Part shown: piece after piece, positions 17,833 through 32,553 of the stretch
Layout: each line of letters begins with the position of its first letter
Position numbering within the stretch: the stretch's first letter is position 1
Assembly (NCBI RefSeq): GCF_009914755.1
Contig: NC_060941.1
Length of the DNA stretch: 64,000 nt
Direction: 5' to 3' (one strand)
Origin: the human T2T-CHM13v2.0 reference genome, Homo sapiens
Position numbers and translations under genes: made by a program
Notes under the pieces: generated by a model
What the model was told of the DNA's origin: nothing
Seen by the model: the letters and a program-made list of their open reading frames with translations, nothing else
The model's database searches: none

Positions 17833-20800
17833 TCATGCTACTATAAAGACACATGCACACATATGTTTATTGAAGCACTATTCACAATAGCACTGACTTA
17901 GAACCAACCCAAATGTCCATCAATGATATACTGAAAATGTGGCACATATACACCATGGAATACTACGCAGCCATAAAAAAGGGGGTGTTCATGTCCTTTA
18001 CAGGGACATGGATGAAGCTGGAGACCATATTCTAAGCAAACTGTCACAGGGACAGAAAACCAGACATCGCATGTTCTCACTCATAGGTGGGAGTTGAACA
18101 ATGAGAACACATGGACACAGGGTGGGGAACATCACACACCGGGGCCTGTCAGGGGTGGGGGGCTGGGCGAGGTATAACTTTAGGAGAAATACCTAATGTA
18201 AATGACAAGTTGATAGGTGCAGTAAACCAACATGGCACATGTATACCTATGTAACAAATCTGCACATTGTGCACATGTACCCTAGAACTTAAAGTACAAT
18301 AAAAAAGAGTCACAAAGATTACTTCAGTCTTCTATTAGTTTAGTCCACTCAGTTAACTCCTGTTCTGTTTGATATTCATGAACATTTCAGCACTCCATGA
18401 GAGTCCTGAAAGGTTTTTCCCTATGCTAATGTTACAATCTCCAAAGTTATCAAAAACCTGCATTTAAGAACACCTATCAAACTCCCATAGCTGACTATCA
18501 ATCACAATTTGAAGAGGAACAAAACCAGACAACATTTGTCTGTGGACAATTAAAAAAAAAAGTCACAGGACAGCCACTCTTAAAGCCACAATTGATAAGA
18601 AAATTTTGGTTACTTCTGTGGCATACAACAATTGTACATAACAATTACAACTTTTAATAACATACACTAAGTTATATCAGGATTATAGGAGTTTTACATA
18701 ATTTTGGAACAGATGCTAATAACATATTTATATAAACACAGCCAAAAGAAAGCCAAACACCATTTTATATTTGACAATGTTTCCTAGGTGATTTTCATAC
18801 TAAATGAGCCAAATTTCACTGTTGCATTTGTACATTATTGATATCAAACCCAATTCTTAATAAAACCTTATAGACATATCTATAATGTTTTTATTTTAAT
18901 TGTTGACCATAAGGTAAGATTCTCATAAACCTTTTATAAACCTTTACAAATCTTTGTTAAAGAGCAGATCATAAGCAAGTTTTTGCTATAAGAAAAATCT
19001 TTTGTGCTTTTATTCCAATGTTTAATTTAAGGAAAAACTGAATAATACCCCTTTAACTTTAGCCAATAATTTTTTTACAAGATTAATTTTTTACACACCT
19101 TCCACAACTTGCTTAAAGCTTCAGCTTTATTCTAACTTAAAACAAACTTTTTAACTTTTAATATGGCCAAGAACATCCACGTTTCCATGACTTCTTATAA
19201 TCTTTCACCAAAAACACATTTCACTTTCCTTACAAGCATTACGTGTAAAACTGTTTCTTCAGTAGTTTCAATTACGTATATTACACTGTTAACTGTTAGC
19301 AACTCTTACTTTTGGTGAAAACCTTGGTAAGTAAGGGATTATAATTATGTACTAGGTGTGGAGCTTAGGAAACCAGATAAGTACGACTTTTTCCAGCATT
19401 GCTATGGGTATGGCTAACACCACATGTTTCTGGGTCTTACCTAAAATCTAATGCTCCAAAGTAGGTAAACTGAACAATTTTCAAAAGTCAAAGGAGCAGT
19501 TTATGACCTTAAAGCATTTAGCAAACTTAATATTTGACCTGCATAATTTAGACCAAATGTTTACATTTTTGAATATATTTTTATTTTACCAATAATCTTT
19601 AAAACTGTTTTTGTTTCCCAAAGATTACTTAAGTCAAATGAACCAAAAGGCATTACACTTTTTTACTTTTTTGACCAAATATTTAATTTAAGCACTTATT
19701 ATTTTAAACCAATTAAAGCTTTTTTATATCACACACACAACACATATAAATACACACACAGAAGATAAAGGACTCATTTCCTAAGCCGAGAATTGAACCC
19801 TGAACCTGCGCTGCCATTGTGATGGTGGAGACCAAGACTAAATATCGCCACATGGTTACAAGGTCAAGCTCCTAAGGACATACAAGACAAGAGGGAAACT
19901 TCAACCAGTTTTTATTTTTTTGCAGGGGGTGGACCTGTAGCAAAGTTTATAAGTGACCACTTCACTGGGCCATCTTGAGCCAGGCTTATGGGGTCCTAGG
20001 CCCGCATTTTGTCCTAAGGTACCACTCTTTATGAAAACAATACCAAAAGACACAGAAAGCACACCAGATTCATTACAGCTTAAGATTAGCTTCATGAATC
20101 CTTTTTTCTATTAATCAAAACCTTACAGAATAGCTAAAGAGTGATTTCTTTTTACCATTCATTCAATCAGTTTGCACAGAGAGAGAGGCCAGAAGTCTGA
20201 CTAGTAAGAAATTCTTACCATTTTGCCAGCGTGCCAGGCTTCTGGGTTACCTTTCCCTGAGTGGCCCTAGTGACCTAGCTGGCTGCACCATAGCCCTAGG
20301 GGCCAAGACCCAACACAAAAGAATATTATCTTTTCCTGTCCTGGCCAGAGCAAAATATATGGGATAAAACACAGACATTAGCCACTCTGCTTAGCACCCA
20401 ATATCAAACTGGCAAGACTCAAACTTGCCCCCAATTGGGCCCCATTATCGTTAAACCAACTTCCTACCAGGAGTTTCAACATGTGGTCTCTGGGCAAGAT
20501 GGTCATCCTGAATAACATAAAAGATAGAAAAGGGGAAGAAGAGAGAGAAAAGCATTGCCTGTGGCAGGGTAGGGAAGGCAAACAGCTCACTGAGGCCAGA
20601 GAAAGACCCATCCATTGCAGCAACACTGAAAAGTTCAGGCAGCCACTTATCACTAGCAAAGGGATCTTTTCCAGCAGTTCCATTCACTCTCAAGTTTCCC
20701 CTTTTGGCAAGGGAAAAGCTACCCATGTCCCATGATCCTGTATGTGCCTAATTCCATTACTCATAGTCATAAGCAAAAAGTGCAAGGCAGATTAATCCAA

Positions 20801-21243
20801 ACAGAATAGCAGTTAATATCCCATAGTGCCAAAATCATTCTTAGTTGAGAGGGACTTTACTGAGAGGGGCCTCCAACCCCCTAAATCTTAGGAAGCACTC
20901 TAACCTTCATAAGTTAGGCCTCGAGTCCAAGTTTCCTCAAGCGTTTTTGCTTTTTATTAAGAGGAGCCCTTAAACCCTCTCTGTCTTAAGAGGGACTCTA
21001 ACTCATCTAAGTTGGGCCTGTAACTCAGCCCTATCCTTTACCCAGGTTTATGCACCCCACATACCCAAGGTCAGCCAATTGGTGCACACAGATAATTACC
21101 CTTGGGGTTGGGGGGGTCTCCTCAGTTTTGCCCTTCAGGGTTCACCAGACAGATGTTACCTACCGGACCCTACCACTTAAGTAACGTTAGCCTCTGGGTC
21201 AGGAGTTTCCTCAGTATTGTCCCTTCAGTAGTCACCAGAAAGA

Positions 21244-22214
21244 TGATATCAGAAAGAGGTCCCAATCCAGACCCCAAAAGAAGGTTCTTGGATCTTGCAC
21301 AAGAAGGAATTCAAGACAAGTCCATACAGTAAAGTGAAAGCAAGTTTATAAAGAAAGTTGGATTAAGAAAATGTGGCACATATACACCATGGAATACTAT
21401 GCAGCCATAAAAAATGATGAGTTCATGTCCTTTGTAGGGACATGGATGAAACTGGAAACCATCATTCTCAGCAAATTATCGCAAGGACAAAAAAACGAAA
21501 CACCGCATGTTCTCACTCAGAGGTGGGAATTGAACAATGAGAACACATGGACACAGGAAGGGGAACATCACGCACCGGGGACTGTTGTGGGGTGGGGAGA
21601 GGGGGGAGGGAGAGCATTAGGAGATATACCTAGTGCTAAATGACGAGTTAATGGGTGCAGCACAACAACATGGCACATGTATACATACGTAATAAACCTG
21701 CACATTGTGCACATGTACCCTAAAACTTCAAGTATAATAATAATAAAATAAAACAAACAAACAACAACAACAAAAAAAAGAAAGTAAAGAAATAAAAGAA
21801 TGGCTACTCCATAGGCAGATCAGCCCTAAGAGCTGCTAGTTACCCATTTCTAAGATTATTTGATTATATACTAAACAAGGGTGGATTATTCATGTTTCCA
21901 CTTTTTAGACCATATAGGGTAACTTCCTGACATTGCCATGGTATTTGTAAACTGTCATGGTGCTGGTGGGAGTGTAGCAGTGAGGAAAACCAGAGGTCAC
22001 TCTCATTGTCATCTTGGTTTTGATGGGTTTTAGCCAGCTTCTTTACTGCTACTTGTTTTATCGACAAGGTCTTTATGACCTGTATCATCTTGTGCCAACC
22101 TCCTAGCTCATCCTGTGACTTAGAATACCTTAACTCACTGGGAATGCAGCACAGCAGGTCTTAGCCTTATTGTACCAAGCCCCTGTTCAAGATGGAGTTG
22201 CTGTGGTTTAAACA
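21244..22214 (-). mobile_element. MER41A 5' LTR, interrupted by L1 and terminally truncated
   Basis: Colinear with 9943-10520 once 21359-21776 is removed. Confidence 0.88.
21359..21776 (+). mobile_element. Young 5'-truncated L1 (L1PA2-4-like) 3' end
   Basis: tggattaagaaaatgtggcac...gctaaatgacgagttaatgggtgcagc (GAG, not the Ta ACA diagnostic), A-rich tail; TSD AAAGAAAGT at 21350-21358 and 21777-21785. Confidence 0.9.
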
Positions 22215-23201
22215 TTAAAATGGAATGAATAGCCATACAAAGTACTTCTTCTCAGTAGATGGTGGCCAGAAACAAATAGGAAGGCCCCAGCTCTGTCAAG
22301 GAAATAAAAATTGCTGATAGCTCTACATTCTTCTGTTATCACCCTTAAGCCCTAATGCTGCTTTTTGAAAACCAGCCATCAGTGTACATTCCCCAAGACC
22401 TGCCACAGATCACAGAAGACTCTGACCATCAGAGCAGTGAACAGGGGCTGGGGGCCGTATCCTAGAAAGGTGAACAACAGGTGAAAAAACAGGAAGAAAT
22501 AAAGAGAAGAGGAAATTTTTTAAAAAGTGATAAGTTATTTCTTTATGAGAAGGAGGGAGATAGGAGGATTGACGTTTTAAGTAAGAGGAGGTCCTCTTTT
22601 GTTTAATATTTACATGGATATTTTTCTTCCTTTCACACCTATTTGTGTTTTAAACTGCAAATCTGCCACTTATGGACTTTTAACTGGTGAGCTTAATCCA
22701 TTCATATTTAACCAGATTACTAATAATGAAGAACTTATTTTTGCCATTATGCTATTATACATATATATGTTTGTGTGTATGTGTGTGTGTGTATGTATAT
22801 AAGTGTATATATCTTTTTGTTCCTCAATTATTTTAATACTGTCTTCCTTTGTTTTTGATTTTTTTTTTTTTTGGTGTACCACATTTGATTCCCTCTTTAT
22901 TTACTTTTCAGTATTTTTTTAAATTACCTTCTTAGTGGTTACCATGGAGATGACAGTTAACATCCTAAATTTGTATCAATCTAGTTCTAATTAATAATAC
23001 ATTGGCGCAACCCGCTCAGGTCCCTTTCCATGCTGTGGAAGCTTTGTTCTTTCACTCTTCACAATAAATCTTGCTGCTGCTCACTCTTTGGATCCATGCC
23101 ACCTTTAAGAGCTGTAACACTCACTGCGAAGGTACACAGCTCCATTCTTGAGGTCAGCAAGACCATAAACCCACCAGCAGGAACCAACTCCAGGCACTTC
23201 T

Positions 23202-23219
23202 CGGGGGCTTGTCCAGGAT
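23202..23219 (+). other. Primer-binding site, tRNA-Pro type
   Basis: cgggggcttgtccaggat matches TGGGGGCTCGTCCGGGAT at 15/18, two mismatches at CpG; lies just after the U5 end. Confidence 0.75.
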
Positions 23220-24059
23220 ATCGCCACGTGGCGAGTACCACTGGACCCATGTCACTTGCTATTCTGTCCTATTTTTCCTTAGAATTCAGGGGCTAAACAT
23301 CAGGCACTAGTTTTCCTCCTAGACCACAAAGGGGACTAAGAAAGGTTGGATTTAGTGGCCCTTACCAATGCCTTCTTGAAAACCTGCACCCTTGCCTTTC
23401 TTCTTAGACCACAAAGAGGACTGAGAAAAATTGGATTTAGTGGCCCTTACTGATGCATTCTCAAAAACCTGTCAGAGTCCTAAGCGTTTTCTCCTGTTGG
23501 TATTGGGACCTTATCCTTGTCCTATAAAGATGATATGCCTCAAAATGGAGTGGAGGGCCATACCCTGAGGGAGGGAAGGGATCTCCAGGGTTGGAAGAGT
23601 GACGCCTTTTGTCCTCACTTCTTATCATATGAATAGGAAGGATATTCTCCTAATTTGGGAGTCTATAATTTCTGAGGGTCCCCATATCCTAGCTTCAGGA
23701 ATAGCCTTTGTTAGGCCTGCTAGACTAAGGAGGGATCCTAAAATTCCAGATAGTCCACCTGCCCCACTACCCACTATGCTGGGGCTTTGGGCAAAAATTA
23801 TGTCTTTCTGATTGGTGAGCCCATGTGCCTAAAGAAGGGAACAGAGTCCCAAAATGTATACTAGAAATCATTTGTATAAGAGAAGCTAGAAGAGCACAGG
23901 GACAGGGAGTGGTATTTAGAAGTGGGACTAACCTTGGAGAAGAGAGGTGGGAGGAAGTTTGTCTGACAGTTGTTAGGACCCAGGGGGCAAGGGTCAGGAT
24001 AGATAGGATAGATGGTTGACTCTCGCTTAGGCAACATAACTCTGAGGGTTCTGCTCACC

Positions 24060-26630
24060 TCCTCAGTTGTAATTGGGAGACTTTGCTCTTTTCATGTTCC
24101 TTCCTTGTTATGCATGAAAATCCCACACCCTTATTAGGGAGGGATATATTAGCCATAGCTGGAGCTATTATCTACATGAATATGAGGAAAAAGTTACCCA
24201 TTTGTTGTCCCCTGCCTAAGGAGGGAATCAACCCTGAAGTCTGGACATTGGAAGGACAATTCAGAAAGGCAAAAAATGCCTGCCCCGTCCAAATCAGGCT
24301 AAAAGATCCCTTAAGGCCTGAAGCTCATAAAGGATTACAGGATACTGTTAGACATTTAAAAGTTCAATGCTTAGTAAGAAAATGCAACAGTCCCTGCAAC
24401 ACCCCAATTCTAGGAGTACAAAACCGAATGGTTAGTGGAGACTAGTGCAAGATCTTAGACTCATCAATGAGGCAGTAATTCTTCTATATCCAGTTGTACC
24501 CAATACCTATAACCTGCTCTCTCAAATCCCAGAGGAAGCAGAATGGTTCACAGTTCTGGACCTCAAGTATGGCTTCTTCTGCATTCCCCTGCACTGACTC
24601 CCAGTTTTTCTTTGCCTTTGAGGATCCCACAGACTACATGTTTCAACTTAAGTGGATGGTCTTGCCTCAAGGGTTTAGGGATAGCCCTCATCTCTTTGGT
24701 CAGGCACTGGCCCAAGATCTAGGCCACTTCTCAAGTCCAGGCATTCTGGTCCTTCAGTATGTGGATGATTTACTTTTGGCTATCAGTTCAGAAGCCTCAT
24801 GCCAGCAGGTTACTCTAGATCTCTTGAACTTTCTAGCTAATCAAGGGTAGAAGGTATCTAAATTGAAGGCCCAGCTCTGCTTACAACAAGTCAAATACCT
24901 AGGCCTAATCTTAGCCAGAGGAATCAGGGCCCTCAGCAAAGAATGAATACACCTTATACTGGTTTGTCCTCACCCTAAGACAATAAAACAGTTGTGGGGG
25001 TTCCTTGGGATCACCGGCTTTTGCCAACTATGGATCCCCAGATACAGTGAAATGGCCAGGCCACTCTGTACTCTAATCAAGGAGACCCAGAGGGCAAATA
25101 CTCACCTAGTAGAATGGGAACCAGAAGCAGAAACAGCCTTCAATACCTTAAATCAGGCCCTAGTACAAGCTCCAGCCTTAAGCCTTCCCAAAGGACAAAA
25201 CTTCTCTTTATACATCACAGAGAGAGAGGGAATAGCTTTTGGAGTCCTTAGACTTGTGGGACAACCCCACAACCAGGCATGCCTAAGTAAGGAAATTGAT
25301 GTATTAGCAAAAGGCTGGCTTCACTGTTTATGGGTAGTTGCAGTGGTGGCCAACTTAGTATCAGAGGCTATCAAAATAATACAAAGAAAGGATCTCACCA
25401 TCTGGACTACTCATGATGTAAATGGCATACTAGGTGACAAAGGAAGCTTATGACTATCAGACAACCATCTGCTTAGATACCAGGGGCCATTTCTTGAGGG
25501 ACCGGTGCTTCAAATATGCACATGTGCAGCCCTCAACCCTACCACTTTTCTCCCAGAGGATGGGGAACGAATCAAGCATGACTGCCAACAAATTTTAGTT
25601 CAGACTTATGCCGCCTGAGAGGATCTCTTAGAATTCACCTTAACTAATCCTGACCTTAACCTATATACCGATGGAAGGTCATTTGTGGAGAACGGGATAT
25701 AAAGGGCAGGTTATGCCATAGTTAGTGATGTAACAGTACTTGAAAGTAAGCCTCTTCCCCCAGGGACCAGCACCCAGTTAGCAGAACTAGTGGCATTTAC
25801 CCGAGCCTTAGAACTGGGAAAGGGAATAAGAATGAATGTGTATACAGATAGCAAGTATGTTTACCTATATGCCCATGCTGCCATATGGAAAGAAAGGGAC
25901 TTCCTAACCTCTGGGGTAACCCCCATTAAATACCACAAGGAAATCATGAAGTTACTGCACACAGTGCAAAAACCCAAGGAGGTAGCAGTCAAAAAGCCAT
26001 CAAAACGGTGAAGAAAAAAAGGCAGAGGAATCCATCAGGCAGATGTGCTGAGTCCAAAATTGCTGCCAGGTGGAACCTCCCATTAGAAATACCTATGGAA
26101 GGACCCTTGGTATGTAACTACCCTCTCCAAGAGATTAAGCTCCAGTATTCCCTGACTGAAACAGATTGGGGACTTTCATGGGGGCATAGTTTCCTCCCCT
26201 CATGGTGGTTAATGACAGAAGACGGAAAGATACTCATACCCAAAGCCAGCCAGTGGAAAATACTTATGACCCTTCACCAAACTTTTCATATGGGTATTGA
26301 GAACATTCATAAAATGGCCAAATCCCTATTTACAGGGCCAAATCTCCTCCGGACCATCCAACAAGTAGTCAAAGCCTGTGAGGTGTGCCAAAGGAATAAT
26401 CCCTTGGTCCATCATAAGGCCCCACTGGGGGAACAAAGAATAGGTCACTCTCCTGGAGAGGACTGGCAGTTAAGACTTCACCCATATGCCTAAGTCAAGG
26501 GAATTTCAGTATTTGTTGGTCTGTGTTGATACCTTTACAAATTGGATAGAAGCCTTCCCCTGCAAGACAGAGAAGGCTCAGGAAGTGGTTAAAGTCCTAA
26601 TTCATGAAATAATTCCTAGATTTGGTCTTC
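24060..26630 (+). pseudogene. Gammaretroviral pro (C-term)/pol remnant: RT, RNase H, N-terminal integrase
   Basis: PTPLLGRD, LPQGFRDSPHLF, QYVDDLLL, FLGITGFC, NVYTDSKY, integrase HHCC (LHQTFHMG...CEVCQ); many stops/frameshifts. Confidence 0.9.
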
Positions 26631-27720
26631 TTCCCCATCTCTGATTGCACCAAGAATAGCCTAACAGGATGTGACACAAGTTTAACTTTCCAAGTCCCTT
26701 TATGCACCCAACACAGCCTGTTATACACCTCCATTCAGATGGCTTGTCTGTTTCTCAGGGCCCCCAAAAATCATGACCTCCGCCCTGCTTAGCAAACATC
26801 CAGGTTTTGTAATGGCAAACATACTCGCTGCATAACCATTCTCCCCTGGACCCTCTGCAGCAGCACCCCCACCACTAGTGAGTGCCTTCTCATCCCCTCT
26901 TTTAATTACTCTCTTGAATGGTTTCTAACAGATACAAGATGTGTTTTTCTCCAACGGGAAAATAGAACACTTGGAGCTACTCAGTTTGCACCCAACATTC
27001 CTTTCCAGCTGTTCACCAGAGCTACTTTGGCAACTACTCTAGGAGTATGGTAAAATGAAAACAACAAACTCACACACCTTTTTAACATACACAACCAGTT
27101 CTGTCTACTTAATTGAGACGTATTCTTCTTGACATTGCCACAGGAAATCAGACCCTATCAGTGCCCCTCAAAGCTCAAGTCCATCAGTGCAGGGCCATAC
27201 AATGGTCACTACTACAGGAACTGGAATAGCAGGTTTGTCCACTTCACTATCCTACCTCCACATATTCTCAGAGGATTTCTCAGACAGTTTGCAAGAAATA
27301 ACAAAATCTATTCTTACTCTACAATCCCAAATAGACTCTTGGGCAACAGTGACTCTCCAAAACCACTGAGGCCTAGACCTCCTCACTGGTGAGAAAGGAG
27401 GACTTTGCACCTTCTTAGGGGAAGAGTGTTGTTTTTACACTAGCCCATCAGGGATAGCATGAGATGCCACCTGGCATTTACAGGAAAGGCTTCTGAAATC
27501 AGACAACACCTTTCAAACTCTTATACCAACCTCTGGAGGTGGGCACCATGGCTTCTCCCCTTTCTAGGTCCCATGACAGCCATCTTGCTATTTCTCTCCT
27601 TCAGGCCCTGTATTTTTAATCTCCTTGTCAAGTTTGTTTCCTCCAGGATCGAGGCCATCAAGCTACAGATGGTCTTACAATGGAACCCCAAATGAGCTCA
27701 ACTCACAACTTTTACTGAGG
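26631..27720 (+). pseudogene. env remnant (partial SU, TM with immunosuppressive domain)
   Basis: GTGIAGLSTS fusion-peptide region, [27 protein letters not shown] (ISD + CX6CC), WLLPFLGP...PCIFNLLVKFVSSRIEAIKLQM. Confidence 0.88.
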
Positions 27721-27885
27721 ACCCCTGGACTGACCCACTGGCCCTTTCACTGGCCTAGAGAGTTTACTGCTGGAGGATCCTACAACTGCAGGGCCCCTTC
27801 TTTGCCCCTATCCAGCAGGAAGTAGCTAGACTGGTCATTGCCCAATTCCCAACAGCTGTTGTGGTGTCCTGTTTAGAGGGGGAAT

Positions 27886-28263
27886 TGAGAGGTGAAGCCA
27901 GCTGGACTTCCTGGGTTGAGTGGGGACTTGGAGAACTTTTCTATCTTACAAGAAGATTGTAAAATGGACCAATCAGTGCTCTGTAGCTAGCAAGAGGATT
28001 GTAAAATGCACCAATCAGTGCTCTGTAAAATGCACCAATCAGCGCTCTGTAAAACTCACTAATCAGCAGGATCCTAAAAGTAGCCAATCTCGTGAGGATT
28101 GAAAAAAGGGCATTCTTATAGGACAGAAACAGAGCATGGGAGGAGATAAATAAGGGAATAAAAGCTGGCCACCCCAGCCAGCAGCAGCAACCTGCTTGGG
28201 TCTGCTTCCACGCTGTGGAAGCTTTGTTCTTTCACTCTTCACAATAAATCTTGCTGCTGCTCA
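27886..28263 (+). promoter_or_regulatory. LTR12F-type U3-R with CCAAT repeats, AATAAA TATA-like box and polyA signal
   Basis: tgagaggtgaagccagctggacttcc after purine tract agagggggaat; repeated accaatcag (NF-Y-type); AATAAA at 28157-28162 and 28243-28248. Confidence 0.85.
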
Positions 28264-28754
28264 AAAATAAATAATAATAATAATAATAATAAATTGGCTT
28301 CAATAGCACACATTAACCCTGCTCCTATTCAGTTCTTCTCCCTTATGTTGTTATTGTCACAGATTACAGCTTTATTCAATGTATGCTCATTATCATAGAT
28401 TTATGATTATTGTTATATGTATTTGTCCTTTAAATCATATGGAAAACAAAAAAGAGGAGTTACAAGCCAAAACATCAATAATATTAGACTTTATATTTAC
28501 CTTAGCAGCTATCTTTACCAGTAATCTTTGTTTTTATGGCTTCAAGTTACCACCTACTTTTATTTCATTTCAGCTGAAGGACCCCCATTAGCATTTATTA
28601 TTTTCTTTTTTTTCCTTTAGCATTTCTTGTATGACAAGTCACTAGTAAAAAACTTCCGTGTTTTTTTGTTATTATTGATAATGAGAAATTGGTTGTTAAT
28701 CCTTTTTAGAGTCCCTTGTATGCTATGTGTTGCTTTTTTCTTGTTGTTGCCAGG

Positions 28755-29632
<878 letters not shown>

Positions 29633-30034
29633 GGTGATTTTAAGATTCTCTGTTTGTTTTTAGCTTTTGACAGCTTGCTTATATATAATGTATCTCAGCA
29701 TAGATCTCAATCTCTTTATTTTTATCCTGTTGGATTTTGTTGAGCTTCTTGGTTGTGTAGATTCATGTTTCCTTCAAGTTTGGGAAGTTTCCTGCCATTA
29801 TTTTTTCAAGTATCTTTCTTTCTTTCTAAACCTTTATCTTTCTCTTCTCCTTCTGGAGACGTCCATAATGTATATATGGGCATGCTTGGCAGTGCCCCAT
29901 AGATCCCTTAGGCTCTGTTCACTTATCTTCATTCTTTTTTTTTTTTCCTGCTCCTCAGATTGGGTAATTTCAAGTGTCCTATTTTTAAGTCTGCTAATTC
30001 TTTTTTGTGCCTATCCAATTCTACTGTTTTATCC

Positions 30035-30376
30035 TGTTTTAGTCCATTCCCTACTGCTATAACAAAATAACTATAGACTGGGAAATTTATTTTTAAAGGG
30101 ATTTACTTGACTCACAGTTCTGGAGGCTGGGAAGTCTAAAAGCATGGCACCAGCATCTGGTAAGGGGCACCTGATGGTGGAAGGTACCACATGGTGAGGA
30201 ACCATGCACTCAAGACAGAGAGAAAGGGGACGAAACTCCTACAAAATAACCCACCCCTGAGATAACAGCAAAGCCTTCATGAACTAATCACCCCTTAAAG
30301 GTCCCACCTCTTAATACCATCATGATGGCAATTACATTTTAACATGAGTTTTGGAGAGAGTGTTCAAACTATAGCA
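30035..30376 (-). mobile_element. MaLR solo LTR (MSTC/MSTD-like)
   Basis: tgttttagtccatt...ctcacagttctggaggctgggaagtc...aactatagca. Confidence 0.8.
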
Positions 30377-31565
30377 TACTCACTATTATGTTCCCCACAC
30401 CCCCACCCCCACAATTTTAGCTGTTATAATTTTCAGTTCTAGAATTTCTATTTGCTTCCTATTTCTATCTCTTTATTGGTATTCACTACTTGTTTGTACA
30501 CTGTTATCCCAAGTTTTTAAGTTTTTATCTATGATTTTTTTCAGCTCTTTGAGCATATTTGGTAGTTAATTCAAAGTCTATGTCTCATAAATCCAATGTC
30601 TAGGGCTTCTTCAGTGAAGACTTTGGTCAAATCGGCACCCCGCACCCCTCCCCCCCAACTTTTTTTCCTGTAAGTGGGCCATACTTTCTTGTTTCTTTGT
30701 GTGCTTTCTGAATTTTTTTTTCCTTGAGAACAGAACATTTTAAATACTGTAAATTTGTTAACTCAGGACATCAGATTCTTCCCTCTCCCCAGTGATTGCT
30801 GTTGTTGCTTGATGAAATCTCCAGATATTCATTTATTTATTGACTTTTCCAAAATAATTTTTTCAAAAAATATATTCCTGGTCACATGTGGTTACCGAAG
30901 TCTCTGTTTTGTGATCTATGATGTCAGGCAGTGACCTGAGAGAAATGTTCTCAAATGCATAGATTCCATAAGAAAAGAAGAGAAATGATGTTCTATCTCT
31001 TTAAATTCCCACAACTAACTGTTTGGGGAAGTTAATTGTGTTTGACAATTGAAACGATGGACAGGTCTTTTGCCAGTCCCTCAGTAATCTGTCAAGCAGA
31101 TCAAAAGATGCAATCTCGATTTTGGGGGAACAAAATCTGTATTGCCCACTGTGGCACCAGCAAGCTACACTGGAAATGTAAGCCACCATCCTTGTGACTA
31201 CATGCTGTCAGGCTGGGAGATGGTGAATTTAGGTCACTTCATAAAATATTGAAATTCAATAAAATTTACCAGGCTTTTTCTTCACCAAGCATTCCTCTAG
31301 ATGCTACGAGTATTACACTAGACTCTAGAGTTCTGAAATACTTGATTCTTATGTTTCTTGCCAGCTCAGTAGTTGTTTCAGTGGAGAGACCAAATCCTGG
31401 AGCTTCCTACTGTACCACCTTCAATGACATCACTATGACTTTAATTTTTTTCAGCATTTATATGCTTTATGTATTGAAAATAAAGAAGAAAGGAAGGAAG
31501 GAGGAAAGGAAGGAAAAAACGGAAGGAGGGAAGGAGAGAGAAGGAAAAGGAGAGAGAGTGGTAGG

Positions 31566-31924
31566 TGATATGGTTGGGCTCTGTGTTCCCACCCAAATCT
31601 CATCTTACAGCTCCCATAATTCCCACGTATTGTGGAAGGGACCTGGTGGGAGATGATTGAATCATGAGGGCAGGTCTTTCCTACACTGTTCTTGTGATAG
31701 TGAATGGTCTCATGAGATTTGATGGTTTTAAAAACAGGAGTTTCTCTCCACAAGCTCTCTTTGCTGCCATCCATGTAAGATGTGACTTGCTCCTCCTTGC
31801 TTTCCACCATGACTGTGAGGCCTCCCCAGCCATGTGGAACCATAAGTTCAATAAAACTCTTTCTTTTGTAAATTGCCCAGTCTTGGGTATGTCTTTATCA
31901 GCAGTGTGGAAAATAACTAATACA
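31566..31924 (+). mobile_element. THE1 solo LTR (THE1B/C-like) inside a GA-rich tract
   Basis: tgatatggtt...ctaataca; TSD GTAGG/GCAGG. Confidence 0.9.
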
Positions 31925-32553
31925 GCAGGAATGGATGGAGGGAAAGAGAAAAGAAGGAAAGAGAAGGATTTTTCATTGCAGAACATAACCAAGTGCTTAA
32001 TTCAGCATTTCAGTCATGGGGTAAACACAGAATCCTGAGAATTGAACTTTACATGGATGAGAAAATGCTGACACCTAAGCCACAGAATAAAAGGCAACTG
32101 GCCTAGATTCTTGGGTTACCTTGTTGGAGTTTCTGCCACATGGACATTAGTTCCCCTTTTGTCAATATTATGTTGAAAGAGGTTGTGCAGTTGCTGGCAT
32201 AGTTGTATTCTTATAATTAAATATTTGTTTGTTTCTGGAATTACTTTGCTCTTCCACTATAAACAGTCACCATGGTAAAATTTGCAGCACCAATTTTCTA
32301 TCAGCATCACTATGTATTCTTGTTCTCTTGCTTTAATGACATTTTTCTTAGGCTGTATGACTATATGATCCTAATGGACTTAAGTGAACGGTGCATGGGG
32401 GCAGGGTGGTTGTAAACTGCATCATTCTTTCCATACTTTCTGCCTTTGTAATCAATTTTGTAAGGCTCAAAGAAAAATATCAAACTCCCCAATTCCTAAA
32501 TGATTAATACAGAGATCTAATTACCTGGTACCTTAAAATATATATTGTGTTTG

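What the first reader, a model, noticed from the sequence alone, without database searches (positions are those of the whole stretch)
22993..28298. ERV9-family genome copied by L1 machinery (processed retrocopy), not integrated as a provirus
Seen: the element begins with R (gcaacccgctc..., 23007) with no U3; the same R recurs at 28187-28263; it stops about 15 nt after AATAAA and runs into an A/(TAA)n tail with no U5; it is bracketed by a 14-bp TSD with one mismatch preceded by TT (TT/AATA); the host L1M reads through across the insert. The 5' end maps 30 nt downstream of the AATAAA TATA-like box in the 3' U3 copy. Established: retroviral integrase yields two full LTRs and 4-6-bp TSDs; R-U5...U3-R-polyA with long TSD at TT/AAAA-like sites is the signature of L1 target-primed reverse transcription, well described for HERV-W. 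Inference: a full-length 5.3-kb LTR12F-type ERV9 RNA was retroposed in trans by L1, much less commonly reported outside HERV-W, and it fossilises the ancestral transcription start and polyadenylation sites to near base resolution.
Basis: partly seen in the sequence, partly recalled or inferred. Interest (0 to 1): 0.8.

Follow-up and report, generated by a model that had tools for sequence, protein, structure and literature searches.

The report
L1-made retrocopy of an LTR12F-type ERV
This is a dead endogenous retrovirus that was copied into chromosome 17 from its RNA by the LINE-1 machinery, not by retroviral integration, a route that reviews describe as unique to the HERV-W group.

Summary
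The element (23007-28263) starts at R with no U3. It ends 15 nt after the AATAAA of a second R with no U5. A 20-nt A/(TAA)n tail follows, and a 15-nt target-site duplication (1 mismatch) brackets the whole. In 4 of 5 paralogous copies of the host repeat, the two flanks abut exactly as one duplication copy predicts.

All 29 nearest 5' relatives carry U3, and 28 of 29 nearest 3' relatives run on into U5. So this copy is an exception in its family. L1 target-primed reverse transcription of a TSS-to-polyA-site RNA is the best reading (about 0.93).

Three corrections apply.
- The LTR is LTR12F-like: 492 nt, with the published LTR12 start-site motif.
- The 5.26-kb length is not shown to be the RNA length. 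The copy carries a private 753-nt inversion with two flanking deletions, about 0.23 and 1.8 kb. It also carries a family-wide integrase-to-env deletion.
- It is not alone. At least one or two more U3-R-polyA copies exist.

In passing, 12 of 14 polyA sites I could read are 77-nt R-only mini-retrocopies.

Verdict: a new member of a known kind, of moderate interest.

The parts
22992..23006 (+). 5' copy of the target-site duplication (15 nt; the 14-nt version 22993-23006 follows TT)
   Evidence: Matches 28284-28298 with 1 mismatch. Paralogs of the host repeat carry it once.
23007..23083 (+). 5' R, which starts inside the LTR12 start-site motif; no U3 upstream
   Evidence: 77-nt repeat, 91% identical to the 3' R. 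All 29 relatives have U3 directly before this base. R-only retrocopies start at the same base with 1-2 extra G.
23084..23197 (+). U5
   Evidence: Homology to solo or 3' LTR relatives ends at 23189-23200 in 24 of 30 held loci, most often at 23197 (11 loci).
23198..23304 (+). Leader in direct orientation (relatives' offsets about 190-298 from the R start)
   Evidence: Collinear with L002-L030 up to about 23299-23311.
23305..24057 (-). Inverted pre-gag/leader segment (relatives' offsets about 529-1269), private to this copy. It contains the family's own 85-nt-period tandem pair at 23312-23471.
   Evidence: Aligns in reverse to all 29 relatives. In all 38 other scored loci that show both parts, the two parts lie on opposite strands.
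24056..26630 (+). pol remnant: end of protease, RT (24436-24850), RNase H (25703-26011), integrase zinc domain (26236-26403), first half of integrase core (26474-26626). It has many stops and shifts. gag and most of protease are absent.
   Evidence: Pfam RVT_1, RNase_H, Integrase_H2C2, rve. Direct homology resumes at 24056 in 37 of 39 other scored loci. pol is 86-89% identical to 39 other loci.
26631..27885 (+). env remnant (TM 27190-27695) and the stretch before the LTR. It sits directly after the integrase core because of a family-level deletion.
   Evidence: Pfam TLV_coat. Six other loci keep the integrase piece within about 200-350 nt of the same env piece. The TM is 22 of 61 identical to syncytin-1.
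27886..28186 (+). 3' U3: 42-nt CCAAT repeats at 27942-28049, AATAAA box at 28157-28162, start-site motif at its end
   Evidence: The LTR start was set by homology to 29 relatives. Repeats D2. Box and motif.
28187..28263 (+). 3' R with polyA signal at 28243-28248; cleavage after 28263; no U5
28264..28283 (+). A-rich tail: A4, then T-interrupted A runs, (TAA)n
   Evidence: Its boundary with the duplication is ambiguous by a few bases.
28284..28298 (+). 3' copy of the target-site duplication

Best explanation
An RNA was transcribed from the 5' LTR start site of an already defective LTR12F-type provirus, one lacking the integrase C-half and the env N-part. It was polyadenylated at the R/U5 border of the 3' LTR. 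LINE-1 ORF2p then nicked an old interspersed repeat on chr17 at a TT/AATA site, primed on the polyA tail, and copied the RNA to its capped 5' end.

The result is R-U5-interior-U3-R-An between 14-15-nt target-site duplications, with no promoter of its own.

- Shown: the anatomy, the duplication, the contiguity of the host repeat, and the exceptional status within the family.
- Inferred: that L1 was the enzyme.
- Inferred, about 0.7: that the 753-nt inversion with its two flanking deletions (about 0.23 kb, and about 1.8 kb covering gag and protease) arose after insertion.
For: - R at both ends, 70 of 77 identical.
- U3 is absent at the 5' end, while 29 of 29 nearest relatives have it.
- U5 is absent at the 3' end, while 28 of 29 nearest relatives have it.
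- The tail starts 15 nt after AATAAA.
- The duplication is 15 nt with 1 mismatch. A match of 14 nt or more occurred in 1 of 20000 random placements.
- In 4 of 5 paralogs hit by both flanks, the flanks abut as one duplication copy predicts.
- The 5' end lies in the published LTR12 start-site motif GCCAGCAGTGGC (passages of PMC11853044).
- Twelve independent R-only retrocopies use the same start base and the same cleavage region. They have 9-18-nt duplications, and about half follow TT. So these RNA ends were real and L1 did act on them.
- A second copy, L041, is a 5'-truncated U3-R-polyA with a roughly 19-nt duplication.
Against: - The tail is short and not pure A (A4 then TAA repeats). The left part of the duplication is AT-rich and overlaps the tail motif, so only the right 6-8 nt are unambiguous.
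- No orthologous empty site in another primate could be examined.
- The copy lacks the extra 5' G seen in the R-only copies.
- The internal inversion is not what simple L1 copying or twin priming produces, because here a direct 5' segment precedes the inverted one.
Confidence: 0.93

Rival explanations
1. An ordinary integrase-made provirus that later lost exactly its 5' U3 and 3' U5 by deletions.
For: The copy did suffer other rearrangements: an inversion and two deletions.
Against: - The two deletions would have to end exactly at the transcription start and at the polyA cleavage site.
- An A-rich tail would have to be added.
- A 15-nt duplication would have to be left abutting the new ends, whereas integrase gives 4-6 nt.
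- Paralogs show that the host repeat is interrupted precisely at one copy of that sequence.
Confidence: 0.02
2. The source RNA already carried the inversion and the gag/protease deletion. On this reading the 5.26-kb copy is a faithful full-length copy of a rearranged 5.3-kb transcript.
For: - The integrase-to-env deletion is demonstrably older than the retrocopy and is shared by 6 other loci. So the source lineage was already defective.
- Transcription from the 5' LTR does not need an intact leader.
Against: - None of the 38 other scored loci with both parts shares the inversion.
- None of the 29 held relatives shares it.
- Only the 40 best of 899 candidates were scored, so a rare source lineage could have been missed.
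Confidence: 0.25
3. Retroposition by a reverse transcriptase other than L1 ORF2p, for example the retrovirus's own enzyme with aberrant integration of an RNA-length cDNA.
For: Nothing specific. The enzyme itself cannot be read from the sequence.
Against: - A polyA-primed copy with a long duplication starting after TT is the L1 signature (established knowledge, recalled).
- The same signature is seen in 12 R-only copies that encode nothing.
Confidence: 0.03

Closest known systems
HERV-W (LTR17/HERV17) processed pseudogenes made by L1: 135 of 213 human HERV-W loci (PMC5537654, passages read; PMC5016936, passages read)
   Same: The anatomy is identical: the 5' LTR lacks U3, the 3' LTR lacks U5, a polyA tail follows, there is a long duplication at an L1-type site, and the copy has no promoter.
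   Different: - The LTR is LTR12F-like, not LTR17.
- The env TM is only 22 of 61 identical to syncytin-1.
- The class is rare here. An exact-motif search found 2 U3-R-polyA sites, and a similarity search found one more. HERV-W has 135.
- Reviews state that HERV-W is the sole HERV group mobilised by L1.
LTR12F-HERV17-LTR12F 'ERV-W-like' proviruses (Grandi 2018, PMC5775608, passages and Table S3; Grandi 2020, PMC6995185, passages)
   Same: They have a short LTR12F-type LTR around an interior of the HERVW9 supergroup. The relatives found here (for example C1:170.66M and C10:22.16M) are proviruses of this build, with both LTR parts present.
   Different: - Those loci are described as proviruses. 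This copy is RNA-derived.
- No chr17 locus is in their Table S3.
- Whether my relatives are the same loci as theirs was not tested, because the assemblies differ.
ERV9 / LTR12 solo LTRs and their promoter (review PMC11853044, passages)
   Same: The TSS motif GCCAGCAG..GC lies at the U3/R border. U3 holds roughly 41-nt CCAAT repeats. The R is short.
   Different: The review says its authors know of no LTR12 repeat that serves as a polyadenylation signal for cellular transcripts. Here the LTR12 polyA site is seen in use, for the element's own RNA, in this copy and in the R-only copies.

Membership tests
L1-mediated processed pseudogene of an ERV | 5' end begins at R (the transcription start), with no U3 | tested here: met
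   29 of 29 relatives have U3 there; this copy has host sequence.
L1-mediated processed pseudogene of an ERV | 3' end stops at the R/U5 border after the polyA signal, with no U5 | tested here: met
   28 of 29 relatives continue into U5.
L1-mediated processed pseudogene of an ERV | polyA tail | tested here: met
   A 20-nt A-rich tail, decayed to A4 plus TAA repeats.
L1-mediated processed pseudogene of an ERV | Target-site duplication longer than integrase makes, at a TT/AAAA-like site | tested here: met
   14-15 nt with 1 mismatch, after TT. Present once in paralogs.
L1-mediated processed pseudogene of an ERV | Empty orthologous site in an outgroup species | not testable with these tools
   No primate genomes were held. 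The paralog test was used as a proxy.
Integrase-made provirus | Two complete LTRs and a 4-6-nt duplication | tested here: not met
LTR12F (ERV9-type LTR) | About 500 nt long; GCCAGCAG..GC start-site motif at the U3/R border; roughly 41-nt CCAAT repeats in U3 (as described in PMC11853044) | tested here: met
   301 + 77 + 114 = 492 nt. Motif. 42-nt repeats. Description in print.
LTR12F (ERV9-type LTR) | Best match to the Repbase/Dfam LTR12F consensus | not testable with these tools
   No repeat library was available. The name rests on the printed description and on recall.
HERV-W proper (LTR17/HERV17) | env close to syncytin-1 | tested here: not met
   22 of 61 residues identical in the TM heptad region, about the same as to syncytin-2.
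HERV-W proper (LTR17/HERV17) | LTR17-type LTR | tested here: inconclusive
   No LTR17 reference was in hand. The LTR carries the LTR12 motifs. My attempt to anchor the ERVW-1 locus failed.

The most novel reading that the evidence does not exclude
L1 mobilisation of retroviral RNA is not a peculiarity of HERV-W. LTR12-type LTRs left a hidden layer of L1-made copies. There are a few genome-length ones, such as this one, and dozens or perhaps hundreds of 77-nt R-only mini-retrocopies. The mini-retrocopies are copies of capped RNAs that start at the LTR start site and are polyadenylated 77 nt later in the same LTR.

That would mean promoter-proximal polyadenylation was frequent at ERV9-type LTRs in the germline. 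It would also mean that the abundance of HERV-W pseudogenes reflects expression and timing, not a special fit between LTR17 and L1.
Probability: 0.45. Interest if true: 0.6.

Novelty: new member of a known kind. Interest (0 to 1): 0.45.

Why it matters
Reviews state that HERV-W is the only HERV group mobilised by L1 (PMC5537654). One paper argues from this that the LTR decides L1 recognition (PMC5775608).

This is a clean retrocopy with an LTR12F-type LTR, and at least one or two more exist. So L1 also acted on a sister lineage with a different LTR, though rarely. That bears on why HERV-W was so favoured.

The copy and the R-only mini-retrocopies also give base-level genomic records of the LTR12 start site and polyA site. 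The start site agrees with what is published. Use of the polyA site is little documented.

For annotation, the locus is promoterless and should not be counted as a provirus.

Tried and rejected
1. Anchoring HERV-W through the syncytin-1 locus. A pol hit at C7:92.70M looked like ERVW-1. But the env TM search shows only an 85-aa open frame there, and no frame of 538 aa anywhere among the 150 scored hits. I dropped the claim.
2. Naming the host repeat. 0 of 82 stop-to-stop ORFs in 19500-22992 and 28299-32000 matched Pfam at E <= 0.01. It is an old interspersed repeat with paralogs 70-82% identical. 'L1M' stays unverified.
3. Fetching the other polyA sites. This was not possible, so 28 of the 40 exact-motif sites remain unread.
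4. A mismatch-tolerant census of U3-R-polyA sites was not run, so the counts are lower bounds.
5. Twin priming as the cause of the inversion. I rejected it because a direct 298-nt 5' segment precedes the inverted one.
6. The integrase-to-env junction as a private deletion or a splice. I rejected it because 6 other loci share it.
7. Pavlicek 2002 (PMC155283) is not held, so I could not check whether it lists ERV9-type cases.
9. Literature searches found no report of LTR12/ERV9 processed pseudogenes or of R-only retrocopies. Vargiu 2016 says it did not separate pseudogenes from proviruses.
Full report
**The observation**

The element runs from 23007 to 28263. Its first 77 nt (23007-23083) recur at 28187-28263, with 70 of 77 bases identical. 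To the left of 23007 lies host sequence.

The 3' copy ends 15 nt after its AATAAA (28243-28248). A 20-nt tail of A4 and TAA repeats follows (28264-28283). The 15 nt at 22992-23006 recur at 28284-28298 with one mismatch. I placed the same test at 20000 random positions in the window, and a match of 14 nt or more appeared once. With the real tail set against random upstream 40-mers it appeared in 0.12% of trials. A TATA-like AATAAA (28157-28162) lies 30 nt before the 3' R.

**Is it an exception within its family?**

I searched the window's own genome with 23007-23300. This gave 39 other scored loci out of 3106 first-look candidates, and 29 were kept as loci. All 29 carry U3-homologous sequence up to the base before the R start.

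I then searched with the 3' U3-R (27886-28263), which gave 29 further loci. Of these, 28 run on into U5, and one (L041) ends in polyA.

These comparisons set the parts:
- U3: 27886-28186.
- R: 77 nt.
- U5: 23084 to about 23197. Homology to solo or 3' LTRs ends at 23189-23200 in 24 of 30 loci.
- Whole LTR: 492 nt.

**Empty-site proxy**

No primate genomes were available. I therefore searched the genome separately with the left flank (22840-23006) and the right flank (28285-28700). Five loci appear in both lists: C7:159.139M, C16:57.015M, C12:46.554M, C1:243.816M and C17:59.013M. In four, the end of the left alignment and the start of the right alignment are spaced exactly as expected if the paralog holds one copy of the duplicated 14-15 nt. 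In the fifth they are 17 nt further apart.

So the insert interrupts an old interspersed repeat, and the short repeat is a true target-site duplication. I could not confirm that the host repeat is an L1M. 0 of 82 flank ORFs hit Pfam.

**What kind of element it is**

The U3/R border reads ..GCCAGCAGCA|GCAACC.. here. In the 29 relatives the three bases before R are GCA (14), GTG (10), GCG (2) or other (3). This is the GCCAGCAGTGGC motif that a 2025 review gives as the LTR12 start site. The same review gives about 500 bp as the length of LTR12F and describes roughly 41-nt U3 repeats (PMC11853044, passages). Repeats of 42 nt with CCAAT are present at 27942-28049.

The interior holds these domains by Pfam:
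- RT: 24436-24850.
- RNase H: 25703-26011.
- Integrase zinc domain: 26236-26403.
- First half of the integrase core: 26474-26626.
- env TM: 27190-27695.

All are broken by stops and shifts, and no gag was found. pol is 86-89% identical to 39 other loci, several of which sit behind LTR12F-type 5' LTRs found. The TM heptad region is 22 of 61 identical to syncytin-1 and similar to syncytin-2, so the env is not that of HERV-W proper.

Grandi and colleagues describe LTR12F-HERV17-LTR12F loci as 'ERV-W-like' proviruses (PMC5775608 and PMC6995185, passages; Table S3 read). No chr17 locus is in their table. I could not run a repeat library, so family names rest on these descriptions.

**Internal rearrangements**

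- The segment 23305-24057 aligns in reverse to all 29 held relatives. It corresponds to their offsets of about 529-1269 from the R start.
- In a genome search with 23150-24250, all 38 other loci that show both parts have them on opposite strands. None spans either junction.
- Direct homology resumes at 24056 in 37 of 39 other scored loci. In the provirus at C1:172.726M this is offset of about 3060.
- So the copy has a private inversion flanked by deletions of about 0.23 kb and about 1.8 kb. The larger one removes gag and most of protease.
- Twin priming does not explain this, because a direct 298-nt 5' segment precedes the inverted one.
- In contrast, the jump from mid-integrase to env is shared. 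Six other loci keep the same integrase piece (89-94% identical) within about 200-350 nt of the same env piece. The source lineage was therefore already defective.
- The present 5.26 kb need not be the length of the RNA that was copied.

**Other L1-made copies**

An exact motif made of the last 14 nt of R around AATAAA, 7 free bases and A5 finds 40 sites in the genome. The reversed control finds 0. A looser version gave 128 overlapping matches against 2.

I held sequence for 14 distinct sites. Of these:
- 12 are R-only units.
- 2 show no homology and are chance matches.

The R-only units share these features:
- A duplication of 9-18 nt.
- One or two extra G, then R starting at the same base as this element. 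The R is 62-80 nt long and is the full 77 nt in most.
- polyA, most often right after the same CA.
- No U3 and no U5.

Two of the 12 are a segmental-duplication pair.

Adding the U3-end motif CCAGCAG at the right distance leaves 2 sites, this one and C5:52222183. That motif is exact in 23 of 29 relatives, so few U3-bearing sites were missed among the 40. L041 (C2:204.155M) is a third. It is a 5'-truncated copy of about 410 nt, made of the pre-LTR stretch, U3, R and polyA, with a roughly 19-nt duplication.

The other 28 sites could not be read, and a mismatch-tolerant census was not run. All counts are therefore lower bounds.

**Mechanism**

The best reading is L1 target-primed reverse transcription of a full TSS-to-polyA-site RNA from a defective LTR12F-type provirus (confidence about 0.93). 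The anatomy is shown. The enzyme is inferred from the polyA priming, the long duplication and the TT/AATA site, and from the same signature at the R-only copies.

The two R copies differ at 7 of 77 positions, several at CpG sites. This points to an old insertion, some tens of millions of years, but the sample is small and the source LTRs may already have differed.

**Comparison and novelty**

The kind is known, namely HERV-W processed pseudogenes. Reviews call HERV-W the sole HERV group mobilised by L1 (PMC5537654, abstract and passages). Vargiu 2016 did not separate pseudogenes from proviruses (PMC4724089, passages). Five full-text searches found no report of LTR12/ERV9 processed pseudogenes or R-only retrocopies. 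Pavlicek 2002 was not available.

I class the finding as a new member of a known kind. The side observation of R-only mini-retrocopies may be the more novel item.

Noticed in passing
L061, L067, L068, L069, L076, L077, L078, L079, L080, L088, L089, L090 (R at about 1446-1522 or its reverse in each locus): Twelve R-only mini-retrocopies of LTR12-type LTRs. Each has a duplication of 9-18 nt, then 1-2 extra G, then R (62-80 nt, mostly the full 77) starting at the same base as the window element, then polyA. None has U3 or U5. They look like L1 copies of capped RNAs that start and are polyadenylated within one LTR. 40 exact-motif sites exist genome-wide against 0 in the control. 28 of them were not read.
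   Followed up: partly
L041 (G000:C2:204155127-204155495, minus strand): A second LTR12F-type U3-R-polyA copy. It is 5'-truncated about 35 nt before the LTR and has a roughly 19-nt duplication.
   Followed up: partly
G000:C5:52222183-52222272 (+): The only other exact match to U3-end motif + R + polyA. Its upstream extent is unknown because it could not be fetched.
   Followed up: no
window 23305-24057: A 753-nt inversion with deletions on both sides, private to this copy. The junctions show at most about 2-7 nt of overlap between the direct and inverted alignments.
   Followed up: yes
window 26350-27130, and loci at C1:170.667M, C8:27.771M, C16:63.19M, C18:26.428M, C15:42.67M, C13:61.377M: A subfamily of LTR12F-type elements shares a deletion from the middle of the integrase core to inside env. 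Defective genomes were therefore being propagated.
   Followed up: partly
window 23312-23386 and 23397-23471: An 85-nt-period tandem pair in the leader/pre-gag region. It is also present as two copies in the relatives, so it is a family feature.
   Followed up: partly
G000:C17:55314695-55316248 and C17:55161937-55162229 (outside the window): Two other LTR12F-type elements lie within about 110 kb of this copy on chr17, and both have U3 present.
   Followed up: no
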